This document shows positions 17,101 through 62,400 of a DNA stretch of 64,000 bases, one piece after another. Numbering within the stretch: position 1 is the stretch's first letter; each line of letters starts with the position of its first letter. The DNA comes from Amoebophrya sp. A120 (Eukaryota; Protista; Dinoflagellata), in contig CAJINV010000004.1 in assembly GCA_905178155.1 (NCBI GenBank), positions 6,302,828-6,366,827 on the forward strand, given 5' to 3'. Position numbers and translations under genes: made by a program. The notes below the pieces were generated by a model. It saw only the letters and a program-made list of their open reading frames with translations, did no database searches and had not been told where the DNA came from.

Positions 17101-18365
17101 CGCGTCAAGGGCCTTTGTAGTTCGGGCCGGTACCGCTTGCAGCCCCGACAGGGGATGTAATTCCCCCCGCGCACGTTCCCCTCCCAGGGCCGCATGTCCT
17201 CTTCGCTGTCGTGTTCTACTTCCTGCGTCCAGCCCATCAACTTGTCCCTGATATGCAATACAAATTTCCCGTACATGTACAAAATGCATGACAAACTTCA
17301 CCAATTTGGAGGGTAAAACTTGTCATGCTGAACTAGGATCGAAGCCAAGTTTTGTCATGCAGCGCTCGCATTTGTACGTGTACTGAAAATTTACTGTGGA
17401 TACCTGATTTTCCGACTCACGACGCCGGGTAAATCGAGCAGCTGCCGGAAGGAAGACGTTGGGACAGCACCGTCTGGAGGAGAAGCGACTGGTGTAGAAG
17501 TTGTTCTTGGGGTCGTGGTAGCGGCTTCGTCGTAAAGACCATCTGCACCATTTCGAGGCGGTGCATTAGGACGAACAAGCAGAGCACCATTTGCAGTTGA
17601 TCTCTGCTGCTGCAGTTCTAGAGAGTCTGGCGGCAGCGTCGTTGTCGAAGAGGATTCAGACAAGGAGAAGGGAGTGCTGCTTGCGCTTTTATTCTGCACC
17701 TGCGGTTGCTCGCCTGCGGTTGTTCCCTTCGGATGACCAGTTCGTTGCTCTGACGCAAGAAAGCTGTTTTGCGAATCCGGACCCAAAATTTTTGCCACTT
17801 TGGTTTCAGCTGAGGGTGAGGTCGACGCAGCGGTATTAGAGTTCGGCGGGGAAGAGAAGGAGTTGGACGAAAAGCCCAGCGCTAAACTCCGGCTCGTTTC
17901 CGCATAGCTCTTCGCTGAGGCCGCAGCAGCAGCGGCTGCGGCGGCTGCAGTAGCAGGCCTCGCAGCAGTGCTGGACGATGAACTTCTAGCTGGGTCTCCA
18001 GCTGCGCCGCGCACGGGCAAACCAGCGCCATCGGCTTGATCGGTAATTGGCACAGGCGCTCCTGGCTGGTGAAACTCTATTCCAAATACAGACACGTACG
18101 CGGCGCCCACCACGAGCACTAAACAGGCCGTGACCAGTCCGACCGTCAACCCCGGGGCCGGCGTTTTCGAAATCAACTTACTCTCGTCGACCAAGAGCTC
18201 ATTTTCCGGGCTGCTATTGGGGTGATGCAGAGGAGCCGTCGAGCCTGTAGTTCTTTGTTCGGGCCGTGCCGCTGGAACGCCTACGGTGGAGGACGAGGAG
18301 GATTCGGATGTGTCGGTTGCGGGAGGCATAGAAGACGAGGAGGACGAGGTGGACGAGGAGGCCAT
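14129..18365 (-). CDS. Membrane-anchored low-complexity (S/P/Q-rich) protein; 3' exon structure uncertain
   Basis: ORF 17391-18365 has a TM segment (LTVGLVTACLVLVVGAAYVSVFGI). It joins 16518-17294 on removal of 17248-17403, then joins the 14918-16408 ORF by GT-AG intron 16393-16525. Probable further exons lie at ~14500-14800 and 14129-14395; those junctions are not resolved. Confidence 0.6.
17252..17402. mobile_element. Introner element (family F, 151 bp), TSD CCTGA; the only copy that also reads as a GT-AG intron
   Basis: TAT...ATA ends, imperfect TIR, CCTGA at 17247-17251 and 17403-17407. Removal gives ...SRKIR-DKLMG. Confidence 0.85.
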
Positions 18366-19042
18366 TTTTGTCGTCGGTCACTGTGCTAGTATCCTCGCGG
18401 CAGGAGTCCTCTTCTGGGGGCACAAAAACAGATCTTCAAAGAAGAGGCAAATTTCGAGTGAGCGGTGAGCAAAGTGCTTTTACAGGCTGATGTTGGTGTT
18501 GTTCGTGCTTGTGGAAATAAAGTCAGTGTGCAGAACCGCCGGCGTCATGGCGATCATACATGGATCGAAATCTTAGATTGCGAGAGAAAGACCGATTGTT
18601 GGCGGGATGATGTGAGGAAGAAGTACTTAAAGTTACATTCACAACACGAAAGCACAGCTACAGTGCATCAACACAACAACGACTTTGAAGACAAACGAAC
18701 AACACCAAGATCGGCAGAGCGACACGCTTCGCATTCGGCGTAATTCTCGAAGGAGCTGAGCTCTGCGGGTTGGCCTACGTCTATTTCACTTCTACTCTAT
18801 GACAAAGAATTTCGAGCAACTGCAACTGCATCTGCAACATCATGCTATCCCAAAATAAAAACCAAAAAAACATGACAAATATGCTCTGTTTACGTTCGTA
18901 TGCAGCAAGGAACGGAATATGGCTAAATCATATGACTTCATCGGCCAGTGGGCCGTCACAGTGATAGGAATATGCAGCAAACAAAGATTGGAATCCGCAA
19001 AAGTACAAAATAGAAATCAATTTCGCGCCAAAGAGAGATTGC

Positions 19043-20328: not shown

Positions 20329-23300
20329 TCACTCCGCATCCTCCCCGTGCACTATATCGTCTATGTCGATATTTTTCACGCCGACGTTCCCTTTGACCCG
20401 GGCCTCCAAAATCTCCAGCGCCTTCCCCATCTTCTTATTTTTCTTCACATTCCCCACTTTGGGCCGCTGTCGCTCCCGCCGCTGCGCGTAGCTTTCTATC
20501 CCTAACTTCGCGGACAACTCGTCCTGCATCCGAAGGTCCTGTGGTCGGTTTTTATCGACTTTCGTCATCTTCTCCGCCAGTTCTCTTTGCTTCTCCTCAA
20601 CCTGCAACGCCAACTGCGCTGCTATCGCCCGCCGCTTCGCTTCGGAGCGCGGGGTCAGGCCGAGGTCCCCGTCCACCTCCTTCTTCAAGCTCTTCTGCAA
20701 CGCCTGAATGTTCATCGATCCACCGAAAATATTCGGCGCGTGGTCAACATTCGACATTTCCTCGTTTTCCGTGAGTCTCTGTGACGACATGCGGTGGGTT
20801 AGTATCTTTGAGTTGCGATGATCCTGTTCAATAACGGTCTGGTACGCGGAGTCCTTATGGCCGCGGACGCCAGAAATCAGACCTTCACTCTGCCCGGAAT
20901 CGAAGATCATTCCTCCCGCACTGACCAGGTGAATGCCTGAGCCCTCTATCTGCTGGTCCTTATTTGTACCGCCGCCTCCGGAGGCCTTATTTGGTGACGC
21001 AAGCTCGTCCGCGGTACGCGCCATCGCGGAGGCCTTGGCCATCGCTGCGCCCTTGGCACCGAAGAGACCGGCCAGCGCGGGGGCGGGGGGTTTGCCGACG
21101 GGACGTACGGGCGCCTCCTGGTCGTTTCCAAAGGACGGAGGGCGCTGCACAGCCGTTGCAGCCGACGGCCGGGCCACCGGTCGCGGTGGCGCCGTGGGAG
21201 AAGTGTCAGCCGCAGCGCGCGACGCCTTCGCCATGGCCGCGCCCTTCCCGCCGAATAACCCGCCCAGCCCCGCCGCAGCGGCCGCCATATTGCCCTTCCC
21301 GAAGGCCTTCTCGTTGCCGCCTCGGCCCGGCAGGTCGGCGAGCTTGGTGGGCGCAGGACCACCGGGTTTCGCCTGTGGCTTCGGCGGCGCTTTGACACCG
21401 TCCGCACCGAAGAACGCACCTAAATTTGCGCGCAGGGATTTGAAATCCGCGGACCTCTGCGCGGCAGAGGCTCGTGGCGCGCGCTCCCTCGCACCGACCG
21501 CAGCCGCCGGATTATTTTGTGGCATCATGGCATCCATCAATCGCATATCCCCTCCCTGCAGCGGGGGCGGCAAATTTCTCCGCGGGTCGCTGGAAAGCTC
21601 CCGGCGCAGGTCCAGCGGCTTCATCAGCGTCTCCGCCCCGGGTGTACCGGGCCCGATGTTCCGTCGTTCCTCCCCCGGAACGTACCCCCGATAGGCCATG
21701 CCGGTAAAGTAATCCGCCTCCTCGGCCGGCGCCGGGGCCTCGATCTTCCGCGGCGTCACGTCCGGCCGGTAATCCACCGGGCGAAACAGGTACTCTTCGG
21801 TCGTGGTTCCGGCGCCAAATTTCGGGTTGAACCTGTCGCTCACCTCCGGCCGGTAGTCGACCGGGCGGAACATGTACTCTTCTGTGGTCGTCCCCGCGCC
21901 AAATTTCGGGTTGAACCGATCCGAAACCTCCTTCCTCTCAATCATCGGGCGGAACGTGGTCAGATTCGCGTCCGGCGCGGGCGCGGACACCTTCGCCCGC
22001 TCTTCAACTAATTCCGGACGGATGTCCATTGGGCGGAAGATGCCCAGTTCCGCGCTGGGCTTCGGCGCTTCGGGCTTCGCAAATGCCATGATGCGGTCGT
22101 ACGCGAGACGCTGCTCCTTCATGCGCATAATGCCCAGCTCATCCGTCGGGAGCCCCGGACCCATCTGCGGATTGTACTTGTCGATCACCTCCGGCCGGTA
22201 GGCCGCCATGCGGAAGAGAGATTTGTCCTGCTCGTCGGGCAGATACGCGTACCCCGCGTCCGACTTCGGCCGCACCGCCTTGATGTCTACCGGGCGAAAC
22301 TTCTCCGGCTCTTCGAACGGCGCCGGCGCCTCCACGCCCTCGCGGTAGCCCTTCTCGGTCGCCGGGCGGAACTCCCGGAGCGGCAGCATCTCGTTCGCGC
22401 GCAACGACTCGTCCGCCAGCGGCTTGTCCGGACCGCGCGGTTTCACCGCGGGCTGGTAAACAGCCTGCATGTTCGCGTTCCGGTCGAAGTCCACTACTAG
22501 TAGTGGGTCCGGTGGCCCTGGCTTTTGTGCCTTCAGGAGCTGCGGGGGCGTGAGCGGTCTATCGAGCTGCAAATCGTAGATTGGACTCGGCGCGGGGGCC
22601 TGGAAGGGCTGGACGTCCGGGCGGTAGTTATGGATTGCAAATATGTCTGGGTCTGGAAGAATGCGAGATCTGTCATGCAGTTTTTGCCTGACCCAGATCG
22701 CCTGGCATGTGAGCTCTAGCATCACAGATTTTGAGCACTTTTCCCAATGCCTAATCCGCATGACAAATCCTCTCTCTCGGAAACCAAAAATGGGGCTTTT
22801 TGCTAGCCACGCATGACAGATTTTATCATGATGTAGACTTCGCATCACAAATTCGAATCTTTCCAGACCCAGACATTTTTGCATTTGATAATAGTCCAGC
22901 ATCCGCAACCGCATGTCCTCGTCCATCGGCAGCGGCGCGTCCGCCTGGTACTGGTTCGTCCGCGCGGAGAACGCGGGGCTTTCCTCCATGCGCACGCGCA
23001 ACGGGCGGTTCAGGATGTCCACGTCCATTGGCGCCGGGGCGGGGAGTTCGTACGGGGTCGGGACGGAGAAGTTCGGCTGTTGCTCAAAGCGTCGGTCCAG
23101 CGCACGGAACGTGGTGACTTCCTCGTTCGGCAGCGGGACGGACACCAGCGCGTTCTGCGCGGTCCGCACGCTGAACATCGGCGCTTCCTCCATCCGCTGG
23201 TCCAACGGCCGGAATTTCGGCTGCTCCTCCTGGCCCGCGCCCGCCTGCGGCGCCGCCACGGCGAACCGCTGCCCGGCGGCGCGCTCCATGGCGGGGATGT

Positions 23301-26300: not shown

Positions 26301-29300
26301 TCTGCCACCGGCCGCGCTGGATCAGCGGGTTGCGACTGACGGCCTTCGTCTTCCCCTTCCCCTCCGCGGCCTCCGGCCACTTTTCGGGCATCTGCGCGAG
26401 ATACTTGTCGGCGGCGTTGGACACGAGCTCTTTCCGCTCCGGGAGCGTCAGCTGCCCGCCGTACTTGCGGTTCATCGTCAGCAAGTCGTCGAACGCGGTG
26501 CGTTTCACGAACCCCGCGGTGGCGATCTGGTCTTTCAGCAGCCACCCGTGCTTTCGCGGGGGCGGCGTGCGGTCCCGCGTGTCGAACTCCTGGCGCGGAA
26601 CGTCCTGGAAGTGGTACAAGGCCGCGTTCTCGCCGTTGATATCACCGTAGTAGTTTTCCCTGGTGCCGAGATTAATCGCGCCGGGGATCGGACCGAGCGG
26701 ACTTGCGTCACCTCCTTCCGGGAGCTTGACTTTATTTTTCCCGTCCTTACTCACTGTTTTTCCGTCACCCTCCGGTTTGCCGATCAGCTCGCCCTTCTTG
26801 TCTCGCCCCTGGTAGTCCAGGGGGTCGAAAACCGTGCCGTCCTTCGTCCGCGTGCCCGCCGCGTAGTTGCCGACCCGGTTTCCCACCATGGGCTTGGACA
26901 GCTCCATGCGCGCGTCCCAGTGGGAAAACGGGGGAATGGAATAGAACCGACCCACTTCTTCCTCCAGCCAGTTCCGCTGCCGCTCGCGCGCGTTGTCGTA
27001 GTCGGTGTAGGCGTTGATCTTCGTGAAGATCGCCCGCCGAAACTGCTGAAACTCCCGCTCCGCGTGGTTCCGCATTTGCGCAAACAAGTCCGGCTGAATG
27101 GAAATGTTTGCGACCATGTCGTGCGTGTCCAGCGGGGTGGGGCTGTTGTTTATTTCGTGGTTGATGTTCTATCACTATCATTTGATTCAACCATTAACCT
27201 GTATACACAAGAACGCTTTGTTCTTGGAGACTCGGCTTCACAATCACTAATCAAAACAACTCGAACTCTCTAGTCAATCGAACCAGGGAATAAATCATGA
27301 CTCAAGTATACCCTTTCCGATGAAAGCGGTTCATGGCCCTGGTGAACGCCGGGTCGAGGTATCCGCGCACGCTTATCCCGCCAAACTCGAGGTCTTGGAT
27401 GAGCCTTCCCGGCTTCAGATTTTTGATCGCTTCCTCCTCGGGCAGCGGTTTCCGGAGCTTTTGCAGGTCGTACAACTTCACCATCAAGTTCGGCCACTGC
27501 GCCAGCACGGTGGGTGGCCGCGCCTTCGCCAGCAGCCCCTTCTTCACCTCGAAATTGCGTTTCCCGGCCTTCACGGCCCGGGCTTTTGATTTTTTCGCCT
27601 TGATGCGGGCACGGTTCTGCTCCTTCTTTTTCTGTTCCTCCTTGTCGTATGTTTCCTTCAACGCGGTCTCTTTTGCTCCACTGGGTTCCAGTATCCCTTT
27701 CGTCAAGTCCTCCCGTTCCTTGTGGATCCTTGCCTGCATTTCCTCGCCGAAGAACTTGATCTTCCCCGTTTTGTCGTCGTAGGCGTGCGGCAGAAATTTC
27801 TGTTTTTTCGTTTGCGGCAGCGATTTCCCGACGCGGAAATCGGTGGGGGTCGGCTGGCCGGTGATGTCCACGCTGGAAAACGGTATAACGCCCTCAGGTG
27901 TTACAATCTCAAACGTTACAAGTAGAATCTGGATTTTGTGTTGCAAAATGCGCAAAGTCTCCCCTACGTACTCCCAAAGGAGCGCGCATGACAAGTCTCG
28001 GAGCTCCAAACCCCATGAGAATCTGACGAAATTTGTATTGCGAAAAGCCTAAGTCTCTGTATGGTACTGATGCTGTTCATGCAAGACAAATTCCAGATTC
28101 TATTGTAACGTTTGAGATTGTAACATCTGAGCACGCCATAAACGGCTGGTAGGGTTTGTGTTGCTGTTCGTGCTCGCTGTGCGTGGCGGCCTTCGGGGCC
28201 CGGAAGCCGCCGGTCAGGCCCTGGCCGAAGCCGGGCGCGAACTCGCCGTAGTGTCGCTCCAAATCCGCCCCGCCGCCGAAGGGTTGGTGGGCGCTGTCGT
28301 GGCCCGCGAAACCGCCCATGGGGTGGGCGGGGGCCATGCTGCCACCGCCAAACCCCATGCTGGGCGCGCCGCCCATCGCGCTTTGCGTGCCGGGGCTGGA
28401 GTGGCTGGTGGCCAGGCTCGCCGCCTGGTTCGGTGCAAAGCTTCCCCCCATACTCGCACCGCCGAAGCCCCCGCCCGAACTCCCACCGCCACCGCCGGAA
28501 CTACTACCGGGCCTGTCGTCACTGCCTGCTTTCTTTTTAGACCCGTCATAGCTGCCAGCGGCGTCGCTGCCTTGTCCTCCAAAACTCCCCGGTGGCGCGG
28601 CGGTTTTCTTGTCGTCTGAATCAGACCCGCTGGACTTTTTCCCGTCAGAAGATTTTTTCCCGTCACTAGACTTTTTCCCGCCACTGTCACTGGACTTCTT
28701 CCCGCCACTGTCACTAGACTTTTTCCCGCCACTGTCACTGGACTTTTTCCCTCCACTGTCACTAGACTTTTTCCCCCCACTGTCACTGGACTTTTTCCCG
28801 TCGCTGCCATCAGACTTCTTTCCGTCCGACTTCTTGTCATCGTCACTGCCATCATCTCCGCTGTCCGCTTGCGCAAAGCTCCCGCCCAAACTGGACGCTT
28901 TACTGCTGGACTTCTTGGTCAGTTGACTCGCGGGCTTTTCTTTCCCGTCACTGGAAGATGATGAACTAGATTTCTTCCCGTCCGATTTCTTTCCGTCAGA
29001 GGACTTCTTGTCGTCGTCACTCCCGCTCCCACTGTCCGCTTGGGCGAAACTTCCGCCCAAACTCGATGGCTGGCTGCCCTTTTTGGAACCACTCGCAGGC
29101 TTTTCCTCGTCGCTGTCACTTTCCTCGTCGTGGTCAGTGCTGCCCTCCGGGCTTTGCGAGGTAGCCCCCTTCATTTGCGACGATCCCACTTGGGAATGAG
29201 ACTGCTGTTGGGATGGCGTTTGGTGTTGGTAGGAACCGAGCTGGGACTGCTGTTGGGATGGCGATTGTTGTTGGGAGGAACCGAAGGAGCTCACGTGTTT

Positions 29301-48586: not shown

Positions 48587-50839
48587 CTAGCTGTACTTCA
48601 TCATCACTTTTTCGTGGATGTACCCCGCTCCGTACTCGTCATAGTCCCCCGCTGTTATCCACAAATCCCGCTGCATACTGCCGAGATTTGCGAACACTTG
48701 TGCCCCCTGCCACACGGAGTTTTTCCGGTCGGTCGCGGTGGTCACCACCCGGGTCGGCAGCTGGCTGCTGGACATCAGCATCAGTTCCCGGGAGAGCCGC
48801 GCGTCGAAGTTTTTGAACATGGTTGTGCCACCAGAGAGCACAATGTTCTGCAGCAGCGGCCGGCGCGTGTCGATCTCGCAGCCAGCTACGCAGTCCCATA
48901 TCAGGCCCGCCACACCACCCGCCTCCGCTTCGATGCCAAGCTGTTTTGTAGATACGTGCGGATTATACAGAAATTCTTTCAGATTTTCATTCTTCAGAGC
49001 TGCAGATGTACATGTTGAACGGAGGATACATTTAAAAAAGTCATGCATGGGCATGCAACATGAAGTAGAGTGTGAAATCGCAATCGGCATCAAAATCCAA
49101 TACCTGTCCAGGATTGAACAGCGCTTCGGGGCACTTCCAGCACTCTTCCCCGAGCTGAATTTTCTCTCCGTCGGGCATCTTGTAGATCGCGGGCTTGATC
49201 ACGCGCTCCTCTGTGGGGTCCATGGAAACGTAACAGAGCCGCTCCTTCATCTTCACAATCTCCCGTCGGGCGAAGGAAGTGGAGACCTGGTACCCCGCCT
49301 TTGCAAGCAGCTTTGCGAGGTAAACGTCGAGTTCCCGGCCCGCACAGTGCATCTTTTTGATGTTGTACGGCATCCCGTAGCCGTCGAGAATGGGGATGGC
49401 GTGGGTGACCCCGGCGCCGGCATCGAGCACCAGACCGGTCGTGCGGCCCTGCCCCATCAAAGCGAGGACCCCCTGGATCCGCACGGATAAGCTGGGGACC
49501 TGGATATTTGGTACGAATGGGTGCTGAAGAAGTACTCAACGTCACGTATTACACGACAAGAACAAACGGCCACGATAGAAGTTGTTCTACTTGTGAATCT
49601 GAACAATTATGCGCCTATGTACTATCGTCTTCGCAGTCGCAGTAACCAAGCAGACACCATTGCACGAAAAACCGAATTATACCCCAAAGGCCTCGAACAT
49701 GAGTTCGACTGTTCTTTCTCGGTTTGGCTTGGGGTTGTAGGGCGGCTCCGTGATGAGCACGCCGTGCTTCTCCGGCTGGATCTGCAGCACGTCCACAAAG
49801 ATGTAGTCCCACAGCATCTCAATGTGCTGAAAATTTTCAATCACCGCTCCCTCCACCGGGTGCGATACCGACAGGTACTGCTGGTTCTCGGCCACCTCGT
49901 TCCCACAGTAGAAATCGCGGTCGCACTTCTTGCGGTGCCGCCTTCGCGGAATGCCCACGTCGGTCGGGAAGACCTGATTCGGTGTTGCTTGGCAATGTGG
50001 ATAGAAGTTGCTGGTGGGAAAAAATATGCAAGTATAAAGAATACATGTTTGTCACAATTGGTGAATCGATATAAGAACTAGTGCTTTTTTGCGCAGCGCC
50101 CGGATGAACATCAAATCAGAAATACCGACACTGGCTGGTCGTCGCAGGACATGCCCACCTTCGTTATGAAATGCAAATATGTCTGGGTCTGGGAGATTGC
50201 GAGACTTGTCACGCTTGTCTGACATGACTCGGAACTCTGTCATGCGTAGGTGCAACAAGATCGATGTGTCTGTGATGCAAAAGCGCAGTCTGCCATAGCA
50301 GAACTACGCTACACATAGCAGCTCAAAAACTTGTCATGCTTGGCCACGCATGACAGTGCGCCCAGTATTCCCTGGCTTGCATCACAAGTTTCCAGACCCA
50401 GACATATTTGCAGTGCATATTCGTGAGCGCCGAGCCATTGTCGATGATGCAGACGAGCTCATCGACCTCAAAGTCCTCCTGTTCGAGTATGCTGAGCAAA
50501 AACGTCTGCGCCCCAGCTTTGTCATGCCCATCTGTATGCTTCAAATATTTCTCATGCGGAGCCCCACGAGGAGCATTTTCTAGGTTATTTTTGGGATTTG
50601 TGACGCTCGAATCAGTGCGATAAGCTTAATCTGTGACGCTGCAGAACAAACTAGCTAAACAGGACTACACTACTTACGAGGCCAGACTTGTCATGCGCAA
50701 CAACCAAAGCTGGTTGAATTGTCTAGCAGAATTCCCGTCTTGACTCTGGAGTGGGAACGTTTTTGCTCAGGATATCGAGATCCACGTCTTCTGCCGCATT
50801 CTGCGCTCCCAAGTTGTCGCGGATGTCATACGGGTTCAT
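48587..50839 (-). CDS. Divergent actin-like protein (400 aa); two introners and three GT-AG introns
   Basis: Exons 50839-50776, 50483-50421, 50160-50126, 49973-49683, 49499-49104 and 48940-48587 (1,203 nt). Actin-fold motifs IIDNGSALTKVG, VLITEPPYNP, GRTTGLVLDAGAGVTH, KERLCYV and IVLSGGTTMF. GT-AG introns at 49974-50125, 49500-49682 and 48941-49103. Confidence 0.92.
50165..50419. mobile_element. Introner element (family A, 255 bp), TSD TTCGT
   Basis: Interrupts the actin phosphate-1 loop; removal restores DNGSALT-KVG. Confidence 0.93.
50488..50774. mobile_element. Introner element (family C, 287 bp), TSD TCGAG
   Basis: TATGCTGAGCAAAAACGT / ACGTTTTTGCTCAGGATA; removal gives DVDLE-QEDF. Confidence 0.9.
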
Positions 50840-53800
50840 CTGCCGCTAGTACCGGTCCGATCCTAGTAGTGATAGTTCCTGCTACGTGATGTGATTGCTG
50901 CTCGCGGATCAGTTGGTAGCTACCGCGTTTCTCTGCTTGTACATGGAGTTGTTGAAGCACTACCTAGCAAACACTTCATGAATCATCACCAACACTTGCT
51001 GCTCCCGTGGTTTTGATGCTCGCTGTGGCAGGGAGATGTCTGTGCGTGCACTGCGGCTCCTGCTGGCGCTGGGTAGGTGCTGCAATGAGTTCTTGCGAAA
51101 GGCTGTGCTGCCGCTGCGTTCGCGTGCGCCGCAACTGGGAAAGTGGGCTGTAACAACAAATTCTGGGGTCGTCCTCGTTTGAACCGCTTCTTTGCACCGC
51201 TCGCCCAATCTCGTCCTCTGGATGATTTCTTAAAAGCGGGAGCACGGCTGTCGAAAGTCGATATATCTACCTAAGTACGGGCGGTTCCTGTTGAAGACAC
51301 CCGCAAAAACGTGACCGAATTCAGACACTATTCCTTGCTACGCGTCCTGGCCCTGCAGCCGTGTCTTCCGAGACGGTAAAGCTAGCACAAGAAGCACCGG
51401 ACGAAAATTGAAGTGCCTCTGTTCCGCCTGCTGTTCTGATCTGCAACTTGACTGCCGCAGTCCTTGGCGTTGTCAATTATTGCATCGTCCTGGCGCCATG
51501 GACTTGGACGCCGTCAACTTTGATTCTTCTCAGGATCCGCAGCAAACCAGTTCGACGAATGCTGTGGCGCGACGATGAGAAGCACGTAACATCATGTCGG
51601 ATTTGTCGCACGCGGACTGGGCAGAAACGCAGTCGCCAAAGCGGAAGAAATCGAACTCCGGAGAATTACAGGACCCAAAACATTCAGCTAAGAGCAAGCA
51701 GCCATTCGTAAGGTGTTATGATCGTGCCCTTCTTTCTTAGTTCCTGTAACAGCTCAGGAGCGTACTAGGTAGTCTTCTTCGAAGCGCCGTCGTCGAGTGG
51801 TGTAAACCATAATATGACTTTCGACTTTCTACAATAGGTGATAAACGTCAAGGAGCGTAGTAAAATACTGACACTGTGTGAAGCGAGCTTCTACTTCAAG
51901 AACCTGAACAGTTTGGTAGAATATCATACAGGATCGGCAACTTTCGAAGCTGCGATTTAAATTCACGAGACGTTCGTTCGTCACAAAGCAAGTACTTCCT
52001 ACGGATAGATATATGCTGGGCGGTGGCACATGCACTCCCAAACACAAAGTGAACATACACAGTACGCCGGCAGCGTAATTTGACCTTCCCGCAGCTTAGC
52101 GAGGGCGAACTCCCACTGCGCTGCGTTTCTGCTTCGACTGCAACATCCGCGGGACGCTTGCGGCACCCCTACCCGCATGCTCGCCGGCTGCTTGCAGCAG
52201 GGCGGGCGGCGACCAAGGAACGGGAAGACGACAGACCCCCCCGCCCGCCGGCCCAGACAAAGAAGGCGGCCGCCAATCGCGAAGCGCCCCGCCACAACCG
52301 CAGGCGCCGCCCGGCTGGCGGCAGGCCGGGCCGGCAGGCCGGCCCGAGCGAACCCCTGCGCCACGGGCAGCACAAACCACGCCGCCCCCAGAAACGTACG
52401 CGGCGCCCCCAGCGAAAGAGGGGCAACAACGGGCCCAGCCCCATAGCCGCAGGCCCCCCGGGCAAGTAGTTCGGTGGCCCGGGCGGGCCGCGGCAGCGCC
52501 CGCGCTGGTCGGCTGGCGGGGCTACACTGCGGAGGCAGGTAGCCCAGGCCGCGGGCCTTCTCACTGGCACAAGTGTGGCCCCCCCCCGTGTCTGAAAAGG
52601 GTCGCAACCTGCCCGCGCCGCGGGCCTGCTCGCGGCAAGGCGCGCACTTCGCCGGTTTTGAGTAGGATGGGCGCGAATTTCCCGCGGCCGGATTGGGGCG
52701 CGTTGCGTTTCCGAATCCGAACACTGGGAAGCCCGGGGAGCCGCTATCCTGGGGCGCCGGCCTGCGCGCCTGGCGCGCACCGGATCGGTAGGCCAGAGGC
52801 CGCCCCCCGCCTGCGCACGGGGGGAGGGCTCGCCGCCAAAGAAACAAACAAAGCGAAGCCATCAGAGGCGACGGCTCTGCCCGTTTTATCGCCCGCGCCC
52901 CGCGTTCTTCGTTCACGAAAACTCGAGGGGGCAACCTGCGGCAGCCGGTGGCCGTCTTGGTGCGCAACATGACCGCGCTAGACTGGTCGGAGGCGGCCAC
53001 GCTTTCCCGTGGCGCTCGTCCACATGGCACCCCGAACTTTTTGCGCCGCACTTTTCTTCACAGTGGGCAAGCGGCCCACCCGTGCATCTCTGCTGCCAAA
53101 AGTACGCGCCGGGTAGTTTGACCGCTGCAATCTGTTGCAGACCGCCCCGCCGCGCCAAAGCAGTCGCGAAACCTTGCCCCACCTGCAGCCGCCAAGCCGC
53201 CGCCGCATCTGCGACGACTTAGGCAGTCAGTCTCGGGCTGCGCCACCACGCGGGTCTTTTCGTTTTCTCCTGCGTACTCGAGTGGGGCGTATTCGTATTC
53301 ACCAGCCAGCGCACCCATTGAAGAAATCAAATCCGACATAGATTCCGGTCCTTCTTGTACACCCAGCGCGGACCTTCTAACGCCTCCAGTCTTGTGCTCA
53401 TGCCTTTTGCGCGACGCCACTCCGAGCGCCCGGACACCCTGCAGCGCGTGCCCTACAATATATCCATTTGCAAGCACTTCATCAGCCTTTTTCCGATGAA
53501 TAGAGGAGGACCATACAGGCCGCTGCTATGAACACATGCCCAGCCGGTAAATTGAGTGGATCCGTCAAAGGAACCACGTCCGCCAAAAAATGCGGAAGCC
53601 ACGACAACCAAATTTATTCATGGTCTTGTAGTGTTGATAACGTCTATTTTGGTGAATACGGTTCATGTTCTTTCGTTGTCGCTGGTGGAAAAAATCAGTT
53701 GTGGCTGATTCGGTAGTGAAAATTTCCAAAGCCCATAAAGCATCAAAATTCACATAGTGAAGTAGCATACAGGATTGTCACATTGGACACCACACACAAA

Positions 53801-53963
53801 GGGGAGTGCGTGGCCGCGCTAGAAGGACAAGAATTTGGAGCAGGGACTAAAATTTGTCTACTTATGTTGAAGTTTCCTTTTTGAAAAAAGAGCTTCAAGT
53901 GGTCCAAATCTTCCCGTGGCTCCACCACTTCCTCCCTTTCCACTCCAAGCCTCACTCCAACAT

Positions 53964-56347
53964 TCACAGACGCAGCGGCTGTATGCCCAGCTTTGCGCGG
54001 CGTTCGTTCTCCAGCGCGATCTCCTCCAACTCCTCCTTCGTGTACTCCTTCTTCTTCGCCTTCTTTGCGGCGTCCGCATCGGCTTCGCGTTTCTCTGCTT
54101 CCCGCTGTCGCTTGCGCTCCTTCTTCTCCTGCTTCACTTTCGCCCCGAACAACGCGGTCTTCTTCGGATCGATCGTGCTCGTGTTTTTCTGCCCCTCGCC
54201 TGGAATAAAATCTTCGTCCGAAGGCAAATCCGGGTTCCGGATTCGTTTTCGCGTGTCAACATCCTTCTTCTTGCTCTCCGCTGGAACCTCAACATCCTTC
54301 GCAGCATTCTTGTCTTTCTTCGATTTATTATTTCCCACATCACCGTCGCCATCGCGCCTACTACTTCTACCTCTCCCATTATCTTTTCTTCTACCGTTCT
54401 TATCGCGCGCTCCTGCCCTGGGTGAAGAAGATCCACGCCGCCGGTCCCTCTTCTCCTTGCGCCGCGAGCGCGATCGCTTCCTCTCAGGGGAAGACAAGAA
54501 GGAGTCGCTGCCCAACCCGTGGTCGCTTGAATTACTCTTGCTGTCCTCCGAATTCCTTTTCCGTTTTGCAGTTTTGCGATTTTTCTCGCCGTCGCGCTCC
54601 CTTCGCCGTGACCGGTCTGCCTCACGCTCCCGTGATCGACGCGACGGCCGACGGTCTTCGCTGTCTTCTCCCCTGCGCTCCTTGTCGCGTCGTTTGCGAG
54701 CGTCGCGATCGTCACTGTCATCATCCCGGCGTTTCGACGTGGTTTTATCTGCGACTTTCTTGGACTTACTCCTCCGCCTCCTCTCCGCAGTAGAATCTCC
54801 ACTTGCTGACCTGCTCTTTTCATCTTCGCGAGAACCGCTTCTGCGCTTCCGGCCTTGCGCTTTCTTCTTCCCTTGGCTTTCATCGGAGGAGGAGGACGAG
54901 GCAGCAGCTGCTGCTGCGCCACTGTCCTTGGACTTCGATCCTTTCCTTCTGGAACGGTCGTCTTTCGAAACAGCAGGTTCTTCAACAGCTCCAACCCTGC
55001 TCTCCTTCTCGTCCCCACTGTCGCTTTTCTCCGAGTTTTTATCTCGTCGTGGTCCACCCGGTGATTTTATTTTCCCAGTAGACCCTTCCTCGCCACTGCC
55101 TTCGTCTCTATTCTTCGCTCCTTCCTCATCTTCCGATGAACCGTCTTCGCTGTCCGAAGATCCTTTGTCTCCTCCGAGCTGTTCCAGCTCCGCGGTGACC
55201 GCGGCCACGCGCTCGTCTAACCGCTTTTTGCTCGCCATAATCGCCTGGTACTCGCTGTCGCTGCTGTTCGGCTCCTCCACGAGCGGCATTTTCGGCCCCT
55301 GCTGCACCGCGTTGCGGGCGGCCCGTGCCTCCTTGCGGGCCTTCTCCCGCGCCTCGCGTTCGTCGCGCCGCTTCTGCCGCTCCTCGCGCTCCTCCTCCTT
55401 CTCGCGCTCACGCGCGGCCTCGTCGTCGCGGATGTTCTTCTGCAGTTCCAGCTGCTCCAGCTCGTCGGCCTGGGAGGTTGAGTATTTTTCGTAGTTAAGC
55501 GATTTTCTGAATGACAGATTACTCGTTTCTTAGGCAAATCAGCATTGCAAATTCATTCCTTCCGTTTCAACACAAGACTAAGGTTTGTAAAGCGCATGAT
55601 GCACATGAAGCAGCTGCAATGCAGAACCCTATACCAGCGGCGACTCGTAGGGCTCCAACCGGTCCAATTCTTCCATTTTGACCCGGCTGGGGAGCTCGTA
55701 GAACGCGACGTCTTCCAGCAAATGCCGCTCCCACAGCAACTCATGCAAAAAGGTGTCCATGTGGGAAATGGTAATGCTCCCGTCCAAGTTCCTTCGACAT
55801 ATCCGTCGGTTGTCGGAGAACCAGGGTTCCAGCTGCTCGTAAATTGTTTCCGGGTCCCCGGTCATCCGTAAGTACGTGGCGCCGAGGCACCGCAAATAGC
55901 GGAACTCCTTCTGCTGAATGTAGGCCTTGATAATCTCCACGTCCGGCTGGATTTGCAGCATCTTCAACAGAAGGCAGAGGAACTTACCTGCACGGAAAAT
56001 TTTACAGATTTGAATGTCAAGTTGGGAAACTACGCACTGGTGAATTTATCCCTATGAACAAGGGTCATGGTCGCGCCGCACCAATCAAAACAACTCTGCT
56101 CATCAATCTTCATTCTGTTTTTAAAAAAGTCTTATTTACTAGGTCTCCTCCGCCCCCCGTAGGTCGCGCCGACGCTGCGGACGTGGTCGATGCACACGTC
56201 GCATATGTCCGCGGCGTTCAGGCCAAAGCAAAACTCCTTCCAAAAGTTGTCTTCCAGGATCTTGGGTCGCACAATGTTGCTCAGCAAGTACATTGGGTTC
56301 CCGATGCTGTGCACCGACCCGATCTCCCCGTAAATCCGGTTCGCCAT
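53964..56347 (-). CDS. PRP38: Pre-mRNA splicing factor 38 (PRP38A-type) with long RS/charged tail (688 aa)
   Basis: MANR...NPMYLLSNIVRPKI...FWKEFCFGLNA, FLCLLLKMLQIQP, FRYLRCLGATYLR and HMDTFLHELL match the PRP38 family. GT-AG introns 55988-56139 and 55470-55634 keep the frame. Confidence 0.92.
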
Positions 56348-57110
56348 TTTTGGTTTCTAATGGTCAAATAATGCTTTACAATTCAGACAATCAAGAGTTC
56401 TTCTAATTCCTTGCCACAAAGGGGCAGCTCAAGTACTACAACTATCTAAGAAGCAGTAAAAACATCCTTGCTAGCTAAGAACTCTACTCGAACCGCCCCT
56501 GCGTTCAACCTGATCCTGTAAAACAAGCGTAGCTTTTTGAAAAATTGAAACAATTTTGACTTCCACCCGCCACGGCTTCACCGCTGCACATTTAGTTTGA
56601 CTTCCGGTTATTTCGCTTTCCTACGCGGGGGCATACCCGGAAAATCATAAAAGCCACAAAACCACATCTATTCCCCCAAGAAGCATCATGCAGACCTTCT
56701 TCATTTTCGCCTCCTCTCCTGGCGGATCATGTGGTGCTGATCCCTATTTGCCGCCGTCCAAAATTTGATCACGAAAAAGTGCCAATCTGGATCCAGCAAA
56801 ATTGCTTCTGTGTTCATCTTGTTTTGCCCCGTCGAGTGAGTCGATCGATTTTTCATCTTCGTCCTGTGGCGCATGCATTTTTCTTGCCGAACAACCAAGC
56901 GATAGCGAGCAGGTCGCTCTGCAAGTAGTGTTAATACCCACTTTGTTCTGAGGTTGGTTCGATGCGTAGTAATACTTCTCAACAAAGAGAGCTCGCTGTG
57001 CTACGTACCTTTTCCGCGTGGTGACACAACATAAAATCGAAGAATTCATGTTGGTTGATTTGAAAAACTTCTCATGTGGCGGTCAAGAGTTGTACAAGTA
57101 AAGCACCCAA

Positions 57111-58912
57111 TTAGTTGGGGTCGATCAACTCTTCCACTTTCCAAATCTCCGTTTCCCCGTTTGGCAGCTTCCTTCGGATGTGGAAGGGAATTTTCCCTTG
57201 GCGGAGCTCTTTTTCGGCGATTTCCATCGGATCGTCTTCTCCCACGTCCAACGGGACCATTATTGGCGAATTTAACGAAATCTGCATCGCACGCGTACCT
57301 GAAAGGAGTTTTATAACTTGCGAGGTTGGATAGTGCGACGACCCGCGTCACCTTTCATATTCATCTCATGCCAGGACCCTGCATGGGTGTGTTGGTCTTG
57401 ATGGTGAAAAAAGCAGAACAATTTTTCGCGGCACACAGTCGCAACTGCAGTGAAGTATAATTTGCGATACCTATTATTCTTGCCCGCTCGTACTTGGTCA
57501 TGTAGGCACTTGTTTTCCTCTTTTTCTTCTCCTCCTCAGCCTTCTTCTTTGCCTCCGCTTCTGCTTTCTTATCTGTAGAGGAGTTTTGCATTTTCGGTGT
57601 CTCGTCATCTATGCAGTGCATGTGCAAAAGCACTAGTTCATCTAAAAACGCAATTTGTCATGCTTGATACGGTAGAAGGTCTAGATTCCTCATGCATGCC
57701 TGACTGCAATTCGTCATATTATAGTACCTGCTTCCTCCAGGTTTTCCGCGACTTCTTGGTCTAACTTTTCCTGCTTGTCCATGCGGTCGAATATTACAGT
57801 GAAAAATGCCCCCACCCCCAAAGTTGCAATGATTTGTGATGCGAAGTTTCCAAATGAAACCTTTTTGTCATGCATGAAAGGACTACAAATCTTTCTGATG
57901 CAGAGTCTAGGCGTATACAGCATCGCTTGCATGACAAGCACCGCTCTTGCTGGGATCTTTTGCAATACAAATTTTTGCTATTCACGATCGGAAATCTGTG
58001 ATGCTGATACACGCAAGAGGGCGAATGTTTCATTTGGAAAGGTTTGCAATACAAATGCTTTCAAGTTCGGGGGTGGGGGCATTTTTCATTGTAATATCGA
58101 AGTCATCCTCTTCATAGGGGTTGTCGTCCTTTTTGGGTTATCAAATGCAAAAATGTCTGGGTCTGGAAGAATGCAAGATTTGTGATGCTGTTCTTCCATG
58201 ACCCATGAGGCCTGGAGTGCAACACCTAGCATGACAAACGCTGTGAGGTGTCTATCATGCCTATCCTGCATGAGAAACTCCCTATCGAACTGGTCAAAAG
58301 TGGACATCTTTTGGTAATCATGCAACACAGATTTTTGCATGCTTCAGATTCAGCATGACAATTTGCATTCTTCCAGACCCAGACATTTTTACATTTGATA
58401 TGGGTGCCGCCGGGGCCGCCGCGGGCGGAGCTCCCTTGCCGCCTGGCCTGGATCCCTTTGCGCCGCCGCCGTGACTATCCTGTGCAAAAGTATCGCACTC
58501 GTAGTTGTAATTGCATTCATGCATTAAAAATTTTTTTCTTACGGTAAATCCGCATGACAAATTTTATTTCTCATGCTGGGGAAATTTGTAATGCATTTAT
58601 ACGAGTACGATACTTTTGCAATGCATAACGACCCATCATGCGGGCCTCGAGCGCGGACCGGGCCGCGTAACTGGAGCCCGGAGGTTGTTATCGCAAGAAA
58701 AAAGTGTTACACTTACACATTGTGTTGCAGGAGCCGCAAGAGAGACAACCTCTGTCATGCAGAAAATGCTTGCGGGTCTCGTTTCCTACGTATTTTCCCT
58801 TATGATTTTTGCATTACAAGTTTTCTCTGCCACACAGAGAAAATTTGTGATGCGGAAACTCCAACAAATGTGTAACTGTAACACTTTTCTCGTGGGATAG
58901 TTGTCCTTGCAT
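57111..58912 (-). CDS. RPB6: RNA polymerase I/II/III shared subunit RPB6 (RPABC2), 186 aa; four introners and two GT-AG introns
   Basis: [26 protein letters not shown]...[26 protein letters not shown] signature. Exons 58912-58901, 58684-58629, 58471-58402, 58134-58098, 57787-57728, 57608-57471 and 57298-57111 (561 nt). Confidence 0.93.
57792..58096. mobile_element. Introner element (family C-related, 305 bp), TSD TCGAA
   Basis: TATTACAGTGAAAAATGCCCCCACCCC / GGGGTGGGGGCATTTTTCATTGTAATA; frame restored. Confidence 0.9.
58139..58400. mobile_element. Introner element (family A, 262 bp), TSD TGGGT
   Basis: Family A TIR and perfect TSD; removal gives APAAP-KKDDN. Confidence 0.92.
58476..58627. 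mobile_element. Introner element (family F, 152 bp), degenerate TSD GTGAC/ACGAC
   Basis: TATCCTGTGCAAAAGTATCGCACTCGTA / TACGAGTACGATACTTTTGCAATGCATA; frame restored. Confidence 0.82.
58689..58899. mobile_element. Introner element (family E, 211 bp), TSD GTTGT
   Basis: TATCGCAAGAAAAAAGTGTTACA / TGTAACACTTTTCTCGTGGGATA; removal joins ATG 58912 in frame (MQGQ-PPG). Confidence 0.88.
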
Positions 58913-59454
58913 TTTTATTTCAGTGTGTCGCCGTGGAAATAGAGCGATGAACTAGCTATAACGTATGTAATTTTTCTACTAAATAACACACTAAATGGTC
59001 CTTCTTCAGCGGTATGTAGTCGTAACGTGTAAAAGTGCTCTAGTACTAATACAAATATATCCCATCGTCGCGGTCGCTGATTCGGTTCGTCAGATATAGC
59101 TGCTTAGCTCGTCTTCACTAGTACACCGTGTTTCAAGAAGATGAATCTGTGCATAGGGATTACCTCACTCGTGAGCCTCGACGAAGATCTTCCATGAGAC
59201 AGATTTACGTCGATTTCTTGGCAAGCAAAGACGACCTGAAGAACCTCATTTACAACATATCTTCTATCACTGGAAATTTGACGAAGATTTTGAGAACATA
59301 GCACTTCTAATACATCAATTTGTTTTCAGGTTCTTTTCTTTTTCCAAGGCCGGCTTTTTGTCAAAATTATCGATTGATCGAATTCAGTTCAGCTTCACGC
59401 AGTACTACGCGATCTGGAAAAGAATAAAAATCCTGTGCGAGGACGACAAAACAT

Positions 59455-62400
59455 CTATTTCAAGTCGACCCCGCACATGCTGGGAAGTAATTTTTCTGCG
59501 AATTTCGCTTCGAAGGATTTCAGATCGGCAAATTGAAACACGGTACGGTTGATCGTGGCCTTGGGAAAGTTTTGGTTCAGTTCCCGGGACAAGCTGACCC
59601 AGGACCGTTTTGCCAGACCGCTCATCCCACCGATCTTCACGGACAGTAAGTGCGCCCGAAAGTTTTGCCCCTGCAGCATCTGCATCTTCTGGTAGTTCGG
59701 GAGGAAATTAGTCGCGGAAAAAATCAGAATTTTCTGAGTCGCGTCCGACCGCGCCCCTGGGGATGTGAAGAGCTCGCGCGCGACGGAGAGTCCGCGATAC
59801 AGGTCGAACGGCCCGCCGTTCGCGGAAGGGGTCACAGCAGTGGAAGATGCGACTTTGTCCAAGGCGGCGGTTACCGCAGTCGAATCGGCTGACCAAGGTG
59901 CGGCGGTGGTGGCGGTGGGAGCTGCGAGCTCTTCCTGTTGTTGACCTTCCGCTTCTTGTAGTAACGAAGATGCTGCTGCTGACCCAATTCGCATCGTGTC
60001 GTTCAGCTTTTCCAAGGCCCTCTTCTGCTGCGGCGCGTGCACGGCGAGCATTTCTAGAAACGTGGGCCCCTTCACCGTTACGACGGCAACCTTCATTTTG
60101 TCCGCAGCTAAATCTAAGCCGGTTACAAACTTTTTCACCGCGGCCACCGACCCGGGAACGTCGGAGTTGCCGGCGGACACGTCGAGAAGAATGACCAACT
60201 ATCAAGTGCAAATATGTCTGGGTCTGGAAGAATGCAAACAAACTTGTCATGTAGAATTTCTATGCCCCACGAGGTCTGGAATGCAGCACCTAGCATGACA
60301 GGTTCTGCGACGTCTCTATCATGCCTGTCCTGCATGAGAAACTGCCTCTACTCTTGTTCAAAAGTGGACAGCTTTTTGGTAGTCATGCAACACAAATTTT
60401 TGCATGATCCAGACTTAGCATGACAAGTCCGCGTACTCCCAGACCGGGACATATTTGCATTTGATACCAAATCCGCCTTGCCCTGGCACTTCCGGTTCGC
60501 ACAGGACACGAGCTGTCCGGAGGTTGTACTAGTGCTATTCGTCATGCTCGACGTTGTTCCGGCATTTCCAGTTGCTGCAGGCACGACCACCGCAGGTGTT
60601 TTCCCACCGCCGCCACCGATGCAGGGCTTGAACTCGCGGCGGAGCGGACTGGAGGGGGCGGCGCACTGCCCGCTGCCCTCCGGTGCGGAGATCACGTCGC
60701 GGCGCCGCACCTGCAGGCCCGAGCCGCAGGTCTGGCTACACGTGTCCCACGAAGTCCAGTCACTCAGCTGACAGTCCGCATTGCAGGTTTTGCTCGCGCA
60801 GTTCTCCATGTCGGAGGTGTTCGGGCACGCCTTCCCCCCGCCCTTGGCCTCCTTCACGACGGAGCGAACGCGGTGCCGCACTATGCATTGCAAATATGTC
60901 TGGGTCTGGAACGGTGGAACTTGTGATGCGTGTTGCAGATCCTACAAAAATCTGTGTTGCATGACTTGCAAAAGGTGCCTATTTCTGGCCATCCTGAGAG
61001 GGCATTTCTCATGCAGGATAGGAATCACCAAGAGGCTGCAGAACCTGTGACGCTAGGCCATGCATTCCAGACGTGGGGTAGCTTGGAGAAACTGCATGAA
61101 AAATTTCGGAATCTTCAAGACCCAGACACTTTTGCATTTGATACGCACCCCGGACCCGCAATGCGCGCTGCACTCCGACCAATCGGACCAATCTGAAACC
61201 TCGCAGTCCTGCGGGCATTCGAGCGTGAGCGGGCAGGCCTGAAGAATGTTTCAGCTGCACATGGACATGTCTAACTTTATTTTTCTCAGATTTACTGTGT
61301 TGTCTCTCGTCGTGTGAAGCATATCGAAGTACAACAACTTCATGTTTTTCTTACATCAAAAACCGTACCATCTTCTTTCCCAGTTCCTTCGGGCAGGCCA
61401 TCCCGAACTCGTTCGCCTGGGTGATGATCTCGCGCTGCGCGAAGAAAAATTTCCCGGCCATCGTGCCACCGCCAATACCACACTGTTTCTGGCACTCCGA
61501 GACCGCGTCAGACACGTCCCAAGTGGTGACCTCACAGTCCTGCGGCAAATTTTTCTCCAGCTTCTTCAAAGCCAGCATCTCCCCCCGGGCCTGCCGCAGC
61601 TTGCAGATTGCGTCGTCGGATTCCGCTAATTCCCGCTCGCAGTCGTCCTGGGAACTCATCTTTTCGTTCGTCAATTGTGCTTTTTTCCGCAGAATCAACT
61701 CCAACTCGTTCTTGGCCTGTCCCGACTCCGCCATCAAACTGGCGACCCGCGCGTTCAAGGTGGACAGCTCGTCCCGGATTTGCTGTGACAGCTGCTTCGA
61801 CAGTTGAGAATTTTTCTTACATTCCGTTTCCGACTCCGCAATATCCTCCTCTTTCGCGCCCGTTTCCATCGCACTAGACTGCAACAATTGCGTCATGGCA
61901 GCCTCGAAGTTCCCGCAGTTCGGCTTCAAATTCGGCGTGCACGCCTCGGGCAGCGGCTCCGGGGAATCCTGAAGCAGGGTGCGCATCGTGGTCTGGATCA
62001 GCTGCAAGGAACGAAGAGGAGCAGGGTGCGTGTGTCTGTTATTTTCACCCGCGGCCCGAGTTGCAGCTGCGTTGTTCCCGATGTCGCTCCTGCTGCTTCG
62101 TCTCGCTGACTCATCAAACCTGTAATTCTGGTTGAACCAGGGATGCCTGCGTCCAAACCGCACCTGGACGAAAGATCTATGGTGGTACAGATGATCGTGG
62201 TGACTGCTTCTCTTCCTCGTGCTGCTTCGCAGGTTGTAAAGAACCAGCGGATTGTGGTTAGGCCGGTAGCGGTAGTGGCGAACACCCCGTCTGGAACCAC
62301 GCGCGCGCGCATTTCTACCGCCGCGATGAAACCAGGAATGCGGCCGACGAAGCGGAAATCTTGTGTCGTCGTACGAAGAAAGCAGTGCGCGGCGGCTATT

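What the first reader, a model, noticed from the sequence alone, without database searches (positions are those of the whole stretch)
17247..61148. A second, non-GT-AG intron system: 21 TAT...ATA inverted-repeat introners with 5-bp TSDs inside coding exons
Seen in sequence: 21 elements of 151-313 bp share one layout, [5-bp TSD] TAT-TIR...TIR-ATA [5-bp TSD], and 15 of the TSDs are perfect. All lie in coding sequence. Deleting the element plus one TSD copy restores the frame every time, including the actin P1 loop, a TSR, a vWA strand and the RPB6 N-terminal region. Fourteen would frameshift if retained. Sliding the junction through the TSD gives GT-AG for only one (17248-17403). Canonical GT-AG introns and PRP38 occur in the same window. 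Established knowledge: introner-type non-canonical introns with inverted and short direct repeats have been described in Amoebophrya, but to my knowledge the excision machinery is unresolved. Inference: these are transposon-derived introns removed precisely by a structure-guided route, either at the RNA level or by somatic DNA excision.
Basis: partly seen in the sequence, partly recalled or inferred. Interest (0 to 1): 0.92.

Follow-up and report, generated by a model that had tools for sequence, protein, structure and literature searches.

The report
Known Amoebophrya hairpin introns, cut register
Twenty-one small transposon-like inserts sit inside genes of the marine parasite Amoebophrya, and most of those tested are missing exactly from processed transcripts without normal splice signals; this intron type is already published, but the cut position found here suggests they are likely removed by a relaxed version of the ordinary splicing machine.

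Summary
In detail: 21 TAT…ATA inverted-repeat elements (151-313 bp), 15 with perfect 5-bp duplications, all in coding frames. Thirteen of 19 elements tested are absent from spliced RNA-type contigs by exactly element+5 nt; six were not shown either way. The window encodes a protein identical to an Amoebophrya sp. A120 record. These are the A120 introner elements of Farhat 2021 (PMC7789003), so the class is already known.

Added here: one element with unequal duplications fixes the cut at N|TAT…ATA-NNNN. TAT then sits at donor +2..+4, like this genome's canonical GTAT/GTAC donors, and all nine commonest published A120 non-canonical classes begin NT. Both orientations are used. In a related assembly, rare terminal changes spare the donor T and a 3′ A at −7 (13 cases, p=0.02). 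This favours a relaxed, stem-assisted spliceosome (about 55%) over a second machinery (about 30%). DNA excision is unlikely. One mismatch-polarity test ran against a fixed register. This scan noted similar introns in four other genomes.

The parts
17252..17402 (-). TIR element, TSD CCTGA/CCTGA; reads GT-AG as 17403-17248 (same register as the others)
22629..22890 (-). TIR element family A, TSD 4/5, in predicted 3925-aa gene
27884..28140 (-). TIR element, own family, TSD perfect
   Evidence: DNA-type contig runs 143 nt into it; RNA joint not listed
29611..29873 (-). TIR element family A, TSD 4/5; skipped in RNA-type contig 29605>29874
   Evidence: record 11
31770..32031 (-). TIR element family A, TSD perfect
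   Evidence: RNA joint not listed
33062..33340 (-). TIR element family C, TSD 4/5
   Evidence: RNA joint not listed
   Evidence: (record 12)
   Evidence: (record 12)
37885..38175 (-). TIR element family C, opposite orientation, TSD 4/5; upstream TSD copy kept through its position 3
   Evidence: record 12 (piece 38176-39328, 0 other letters)
39335..39613 (-). TIR element family C; skipped 39328>39613
   Evidence: record 12
43514..43826 (-). TIR element, longest (313 bp)
   Evidence: X3 has no depth on flanking unique bins
43950..44212 (-). TIR element family A
   Evidence: RNA joint not listed
44262..44518 (-). TIR element family B (family-A-type arms)
   Evidence: RNA joint not listed
50165..50419 (-). 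TIR element family B in actin-like gene; skipped 50159>50420 (260)
50488..50774 (-). TIR element family C in actin-like gene; skipped 50482>50775 (292)
57792..58096 (-). TIR element in RPB6; skipped 57786>58097 (310)
58139..58400 (-). TIR element family A in RPB6; skipped 58133>58401 (267)
58476..58627 (-). TIR element family D in RPB6, TSD 3/5; unambiguous joint 58471>58629 (157) fixes the intron as 58628-58472
   Evidence: X3, X4, X6; both=0
58689..58899 (-). TIR element family E in RPB6; skipped 58683>58900 (216)
60200..60466 (-). TIR element family A, TSD 4/5; skipped 60193>60466 (272)
   Evidence: X6
60882..61143 (-). TIR element family A, opposite orientation, in TSP1 repeat region; skipped 60876>61144 (267)
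   Evidence: (X6)
48617..50839 (-). Actin-like host gene, 400 aa after removing 2 elements and 3 GT-AG introns; identical to A120 protein P0001
56963..58951 (-). RPB6 host gene region (175-aa model): 4 elements and 2 GT-AG introns, all skipped in RNA-type contigs
53633..56509 (-). PRP38 gene with 2 GT-AG introns and no element (canonical control)

Best explanation
These are non-autonomous transposon-like inserts (TAT…ATA inverted ends, 5-bp target duplication) of Amoebophrya A120 that are missing, with one duplication's worth of flank, from processed transcripts, and they are likely cut out of the pre-mRNA by the cell's own spliceosome with relaxed end recognition. Shown: exact removal in spliced contigs, in both element orientations, and a cut at N|TAT…ATA-NNNN| for the one fully informative element. 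Inferred: the TIR's TAT acts as donor +2..+4 (canonical donors here are GTAT/GTAC/GTAA). The terminal stem brings the ends together and stands in for G+1, AG and U1 recognition. The 3′ cut is measured 4 nt past the stem, and the A at −7 is a candidate branch nucleotide. Offsets of 1 and 4 nt add up to the 5-nt duplication, so insertion at any coding site in either orientation leaves the protein intact. Mobilisation by an unidentified DDE transposase or integrase acting in trans is inferred from TIRs, fixed TSD length and multicopy families.
For: Removal: 8 of 8 elements in 49400-61500 are skipped by element+5, in contigs that also skip 7 GT-AG introns. Two more are shown directly and three by length; the spliced model spans 5033 nt, equal to contig record 12. 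Register: joint 58471>58629 has both=0 and joins upstream TSD positions 1-4 to downstream position 5 in X3, X4 and X6. The only GT-AG-readable element uses the same register. Elements 29611, 37885 and 60200 fit it, and L068 would gain a stop if the cut were at the TIR edge. All 9 predominant A120 non-canonical classes in Farhat Table S4 begin NT, and all 9 for A25 begin TT, where the IR starts TTA. All 8 RNA-supported canonical donors read GTA, 7 of them GTAY, with no fixed +5 base. Strand asymmetry: 13 of 240 strand-called elements have one changed terminal triplet. Position 1 changed 0 times on the 5′ arm and 3 on the 3′ arm, position 2 changed 2 and 4 times, position 3 changed 4 and 0 times; Fisher p=0.021 (a looser scan gave 0/4, 2/4, 6/1 after dropping 2 mis-registered rows). 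A DNA-level, symmetric constraint would not give this. U2, U4, U5, U6 and all but 6 of 89 spliceosomal proteins are reported in A120.
Against: The exact register rests on one element in one study (2 samples). G at intron +1 (62, against 71 expected from TSD positions 1-4) and AG at −2/−1 (19, against 21.6) are not enriched among 217 perfect TSDs, so the machine is indifferent to the spliceosome's most conserved bases. U1 was not found in A120. The donor TAT is predicted to be paired in 18 of 21 elements. The asymmetry is 13 cases, grouped after seeing the data, with strand called by a codon model trained on this window. TSD mismatches at positions 1-4 carry A/T upstream and G/C downstream 21 times against 6, opposite to my prediction for a free downstream copy; this is unexplained. 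G·U versus A·C pairs in the stems are 159 to 204, so there is no sign of RNA wobble selection. Farhat Fig. 3 calls the sites variable relative to the hairpin.
Confidence: 0.55

Rival explanations
1. A separate, non-spliceosomal RNA cut-and-ligate system (as proposed for Euglena non-conventional introns) recognises the terminal stem and perhaps the GCATGACA motif, and cuts at fixed offsets.
For: No GT or AG preference. Strong folds, z -1.6 to -15.3, against about 0 for 9 canonical introns. Both orientations are used. A shared motif lies 30-49 nt from each end in 303 of 315 elements. U1 is undetected. In Euglena a paired motif with fixed spacers suffices and a non-spliceosomal machinery is suggested (PMC12501133 passages).
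Against: The register lands TAT exactly on the canonical donor's +2..+4 in A120, and apparently in A25 with a different TIR. Terminal changes on the 5′ arm follow the canonical donor tolerance. One element is a plain GT-AG intron in the same register, and Farhat reports IR/DR organisation in 15% of A120 canonical introns.
Confidence: 0.3
2. Removal is RNA-level, but the cut slides within the duplication from element to element, and 4|5 is only one of several registers.
For: TSD mismatch polarity of 21:6 at positions 1-4. 26 of 55 mismatches are synonymous. Annotated ends are heterogeneous in Gozashti 2025 supplementary file 8, and Farhat calls the sites variable.
Against: All 4 RNA-informative elements keep the upstream copy at the mismatched position 1, 1, 3 or 4. 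Nine of nine top classes are NT. Annotated heterogeneity can come from aligner ambiguity in direct repeats (inference).
Confidence: 0.12
3. The elements are excised from the DNA in some life stage, so transcripts come from empty alleles.
For: The anatomy is that of a DNA transposon. The DNA-type run X1 may be the assembly's own source, and its joint table was swamped, so rare empty sites are not excluded.
Against: X1 contigs at depth 21-26 run from flank into element at 13 junctions of 9 elements (6 junctions with 31 or more letters on both sides). The same contigs that lack elements lack GT-AG introns. The chimeric junction and transcript-strand asymmetry point to RNA.
Confidence: 0.03

Closest known systems
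Introner elements (IEs) among non-canonical introns of Amoebophrya sp. A120 (Farhat et al. 2021, PMC7789003)
   Same: Same organism label. IR starting TAT, then seven looser bases, then an A run; 3-5-nt direct repeats, with a 5-bp example in Fig. S19; mean about 240 nt; RNA-seq-supported removal; multicopy families.
   Different: Nothing categorical. The paper leaves the border unknown or variable. The fixed N|TAT…ATA-NNNN register, orientation independence, terminal asymmetry and GCATGACA motif are not in the sections I read (10, 11, 12, 16, 25, 32, 36). I could not see its figures.
A120 introner families in Gozashti et al. 2025 (PMC12130899)
   Same: A120 families classed as TIR DNA elements, many about 250-300 bp, with mostly non-canonical annotated ends (file 8 part 15).
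   Different: Automated TSD calls are 2-5 nt and vary. Family 38 carries Copia/Gypsy-like ORFs, which I did not find. I could not map my families onto theirs (motif search 0 hits; files 13-14 not searched).
TIR introners of Polarella and Symbiodinium (Roy et al. preprint 10.1101/2020.10.14.339549) and Aureococcus
   Same: TIR plus TSD; some classes make introns in either orientation and recruit splice sites from the TSD (passages).
   Different: Those keep G-H donors and need constrained TSD sequences. Here the TSD is unconstrained (180 distinct of 217).
Euglena non-conventional introns (PMC12501133)
   Same: Paired terminal motifs with fixed spacers to the cut sites and no GT-AG.
   Different: The signature there is N3-CDG…CHG-N5-6|R; here it is N-TAT…ATA-N4. 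Euglena keeps the two intron classes distinct, whereas here one element is GT-AG in the same register.
Non-GT/AG introns of Fritillaria (PMC13326754)
   Same: Precedent for a U2-type spliceosome handling mostly non-canonical ends (abstract start and passages).
   Different: U1 is conserved there; the paper has no occurrence of 'hairpin' or 'Amoebophrya' in its main text.

Membership tests
Amoebophrya A120 introner elements (Farhat 2021) | Host genome is A120 | tested here: met
   Exon 49110-49499 is 100% identical to P0001, named Amoebophrya sp. A120; spliced model 400/400.
Amoebophrya A120 introner elements (Farhat 2021) | Splice ends other than GT-AG | tested here: met
   20 of 21 cannot be read GT-AG in any slide.
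Amoebophrya A120 introner elements (Farhat 2021) | Terminal inverted repeat starting TAT, seven looser bases, then three or more A | tested here: met
   Arms; A at positions 11-15 in 76-90% of 630 arms of related elements. 27884 and 43514 lack the A run.
Amoebophrya A120 introner elements (Farhat 2021) | 3-5-nt direct repeat at the exon-intron border | tested here: met
   15 of 21 perfect 5-mers; 243 of 315 in the related assembly, with at most 5 perfect repeats at any other length of 3-10.
Amoebophrya A120 introner elements (Farhat 2021) | Removal supported by RNA | tested here: met
Amoebophrya A120 introner elements (Farhat 2021) | Assignment to a published numbered family | tested here: inconclusive
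   No family sequences found in the supplements searched (2 of 14 files unsearched).
MITE / non-autonomous TIR DNA transposon | TIRs, fixed-length TSD, short length, multicopy | tested here: met
MITE / non-autonomous TIR DNA transposon | Cognate autonomous element with transposase | tested here: inconclusive
   None in 383 kb of related loci; L040 ORF has no Pfam hit; whole genome not available.
U2-type spliceosomal intron | GT (GC/GA) donor and AG acceptor | tested here: not met
   1 of 21; no enrichment among 217 TSDs.
U2-type spliceosomal intron | Lariat with 2′-5′ branch; dependence on U2/U5/U6 | not testable with these tools
   Only contigs cover the locus; raw RNA runs X9-X11 did not cover unique sequence.
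Euglena non-conventional intron | 5′-N3CDG…CHG-N5-6|R signature | tested here: not met
   Ends are N-TAT…ATA-N4 (signature).

The most novel reading that the evidence does not exclude
A120 has a U1-less spliceosome that needs neither G+1 nor AG. It reads a hairpin-presented TAY at +2..+4, branches at the A seven bases from the end and measures the 3′ cut 4 nt past the stem. The 1+4 offsets match the transposon's 5-bp duplication, so the element becomes a seamless intron at any site in either orientation.
Probability: 0.35. Interest if true: 0.8.

Novelty: already known. Interest (0 to 1): 0.4.

Why it matters
The element class is published, but how about two thirds of this parasite's introns are removed is still open (PMC7789003 section 16; no paper in my searches, resolves it). 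A fixed register turns that into sharp tests: where the branch should be (−7), which bases should be essential (+2 T, +3 A) and which should not (+1, −2, −1). It would also correct intron boundaries in the A120 annotation. If the spliceosomal reading holds, it widens what the spliceosome's active site can accept and shows a transposon tuned to be harmless anywhere in an exon.

Tried and rejected
No whole genome is held, so genome-wide counts and a transposase hunt were not possible. No listed holder was on record as RNA. Raw RNA runs X9 and X10 laid only on elements and X11 laid 0 reads: no test. TIR patterns: 0 hits in viral contigs and 0 in genome contigs. Long 'autonomous' candidates L018, L029, L040 and L049: only L040 was examined; its left arm is short and its 415-aa ORF has no Pfam hit at E 1. 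An apparent long repeat shared by L041 and L066 did not appear among blast hits of 420 nt or more and looks like another short element in L066. The G·U versus A·C test gave no support for RNA stem selection (159:204; copies are not independent). The TSD mismatch-polarity test went against my prediction (21:6); per-site drift inside elements is about even (0.033 versus 0.037), which weakens but does not remove the conflict. TSD self-complementarity is not enriched (47 against 53.5 and 42 against 54.7 of 217). Homolog searches meant to read the register from annotated proteins found nothing or only a partial protein that misses the informative sites. Rfam: 0 matches in the window. AT-AC at 57792 needs a slide that the RNA joint does not allow. 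Look-ups of earlier findings by place and by sequence were empty. The Atlas look-up only named an L066 frame as a homocysteine S-methyltransferase domain.
Full report
Observation. A scan for TAT…ATA pairs gave 24 hits: 20 elements, 2 bridging pairs and 2 nested pairs. Nineteen had a flanking 5-mer match of at least 4/5, against 0.07 in 100 block shuffles. A relaxed scan adds 17252-17402. All host frames are on the minus strand. Pfam supports actin, TSP1, RPB6 (E 2e-5, under the cut-off) and Myb repeats among 18 exon translations, of which 12 had no hit. PRP38 is supported and vWA is sub-threshold. The elements are 33-48% GC and fold with z -1.6 to -15.3, against -0.4 to +0.8 for 9 canonical introns (25 shuffles each).

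Organism and prior art. An actin-like exon is 100% identical to a protein named Amoebophrya sp. A120 and 86% to one from A25. The model spliced in silico equals it at 400/400 residues and matches A25 at 347 of 398. I read Farhat 2021 (PMC7789003): abstract, sections 10, 11, 12, 16, 25, 32, 36 and supplement passages; its figures are not visible to me. It reports more than 60% non-canonical introns, A120 IRs starting TAT, 3-5-nt direct repeats with a 5-bp example, 29,850 repeated introns, no U1, no transposase in A120 and an unknown border. Gozashti 2025 (PMC12130899; passages, and part 15 of 33 of supplementary file 8) lists A120 TIR families with mixed annotated ends and one family with Copia/Gypsy-like ORFs. 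A third Amoebophrya has GT-AG introns and U1 (PMC12005148 passages). The finding as written is therefore already known.

Removal. Contigs of X3, X4 and X6 are only guessed to be RNA, but they skip 7 GT-AG introns in 49400-61500, so I treat them as processed RNA (one study, two samples). In that stretch 8 of 8 elements are skipped by exactly element+5 nt (15 of 17 joints shown). In 25500-45400, X3 contigs join across 29611 and 39335, and one 5033-nt contig has only 454 nt where three more elements lie; the spliced model spans 5033 nt. That makes 13 of 19 tested. X1 has even depth (about 24-33 in most element-free bins), consistent with DNA. Its contigs run from flank into element at 13 junctions, 6 of them with 31 or more letters on each side. 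X1 may be the assembly's source, and its joint table was swamped. Raw RNA runs X9-X11 gave no test.

Register. At 58476-58627 the two TSD copies differ at transcript positions 4 and 5. The joint 58471>58629 has zero ambiguity and takes positions 1-4 from the upstream copy and position 5 from the downstream copy, in all three contig runs. The intron is therefore N-TAT…ATA-NNNN. The GT-AG element uses this register. Elements 29611, 37885 and 60200 keep the upstream base at positions 1, 3 and 1, which fits. In this register every element has T+2, A+3, T+4; the 8 RNA-supported canonical introns start GTAT (5), GTAC (2) or GTAA (1). Farhat Table S4 lists nine predominant A120 classes, all NT-NN, and nine A25 classes, all TT-NN, although the main text sees no clear signature. 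How those borders were placed inside direct repeats is not clear from the methods I read.

A larger sample. A 25-nt arm pattern hit 127 loci of one assembly in metagenome contigs (about 190 estimated; 383 kb held). An A120 protein matches one locus at 100% and 94% over 26 and 53 residues, so it is A120 or a close relative. It holds 315 elements, 243 with a perfect 5-bp TSD. A codon model called the strand for 243 of the 293 with a TSD match of at least 3/5; it was right for 20 of 21 on the window it was trained on. Five families occur in both orientations (32:54, 23:20, 15:12, 7:13, 10:5), and RNA removal in the window covers both orientations of families A and C. TSDs are unconstrained, with no excess of G+1 or AG. 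A GCATGACA-type motif is in 303 of 315 elements, peaking 30-49 nt from each end; the window has 66 hits inside the elements and 4 outside. Among 240 strand-called elements (47 left uncalled), 13 have one changed terminal triplet. Position 1 changed 0 times on the 5′ arm and 3 on the 3′ arm, position 2 changed 2 and 4 times, position 3 changed 4 and 0 times (p=0.021, grouping chosen). The donor T is spared and +4 drifts to C or A as in canonical donors, while the 3′ arm spares the A at −7.

Results against. TSD mismatch polarity at positions 1-4 is 21:6, opposite to my prediction. About half of the mismatches are synonymous (26 of 55), drift in elements is not AT-biased, and 60200 shows an upstream T kept in RNA; I still cannot explain the skew. 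G·U pairs are not favoured over A·C in the stems (159:204). The donor triplet is predicted to be paired in 18 of 21 elements. No transposase was found.

Mechanism. Shown: RNA-level, exact, orientation-independent removal, and the 4|5 cut at one element. Inferred: a spliceosome that has dropped G+1, AG and U1 recognition, reads TAY at +2..+4 and uses the stem to set the 3′ cut, with A −7 as candidate branch (0.55). Rivals are a separate nuclease-ligase as suggested for Euglena (PMC12501133 passages; 0.30), a sliding register (0.12) and DNA excision (0.03). That 5-bp duplications are typical of retroviral-type integrases is recalled and comes from no call; it makes family 38 a lead for the mobiliser. 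Of the Polarella preprint, the tunicate paper and two reviews I saw passages only.

Verdict. The elements are real, correctly described and published. The register and terminal asymmetry were not in the text I read, and searches showed no paper resolving the mechanism; the library lacks many subscription papers, and I could not see figures. Interest 0.4.

Noticed in passing
all elements; window and L001-L127: A GCATGACA-type motif and its complement recur in unrelated element families (303 of 315), peaking 30-49 nt from each end; candidate transposase or splicing-factor site.
   Followed up: partly
window 57573-57727 and about 33744-33806: A canonical GT-AG intron of RPB6, and a stretch upstream of the 33.6-kb ORF start, carry the element motif without TIRs; possibly decayed elements turned into ordinary introns.
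   Followed up: partly
L001-L127, TSD mismatches: At TSD positions 1-4 the upstream copy has A/T and the downstream copy G/C 21 times against 6 the other way; unexplained.
   Followed up: partly
window 20332-33647 (-): Predicted 3925-aa protein with 5 elements and 1 GT-AG intron; no Pfam hit in the 4 exon stretches scanned.
   Followed up: no
window 4493-12619 (-): 2709-codon open frame with no element and no Pfam hit; the first 17 kb of the window is free of elements.
   Followed up: no
window 59458-63636 (-): 1156-aa model with thrombospondin repeats and a weak vWA-like C-terminal part, TRAP-like in layout (label recalled); covered by an X6 contig.
   Followed up: no
whole window: Every gene modelled lies on the minus strand, matching the unidirectional clusters reported for Amoebophrya.
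   Followed up: no
window 33100-33119 and 39363-39393: Raw RNA run X10 has over 100 reads matching only short pieces of family C arms, and X9 has a similar pile at 29789-29826; related arms are expressed at other loci in those samples.
   Followed up: no
L040 476-2934; L029 2877-4061: Longer stretches bounded by TIR-like ends and perfect 5-mers; L040 holds a 415-aa ORF without Pfam hit, L029 was not examined.
   Followed up: partly
Farhat Table S4: All nine predominant A25 non-canonical classes start TT and the A25 IR starts TTA, which would put TA at +2/+3 in that strain too.
   Followed up: no
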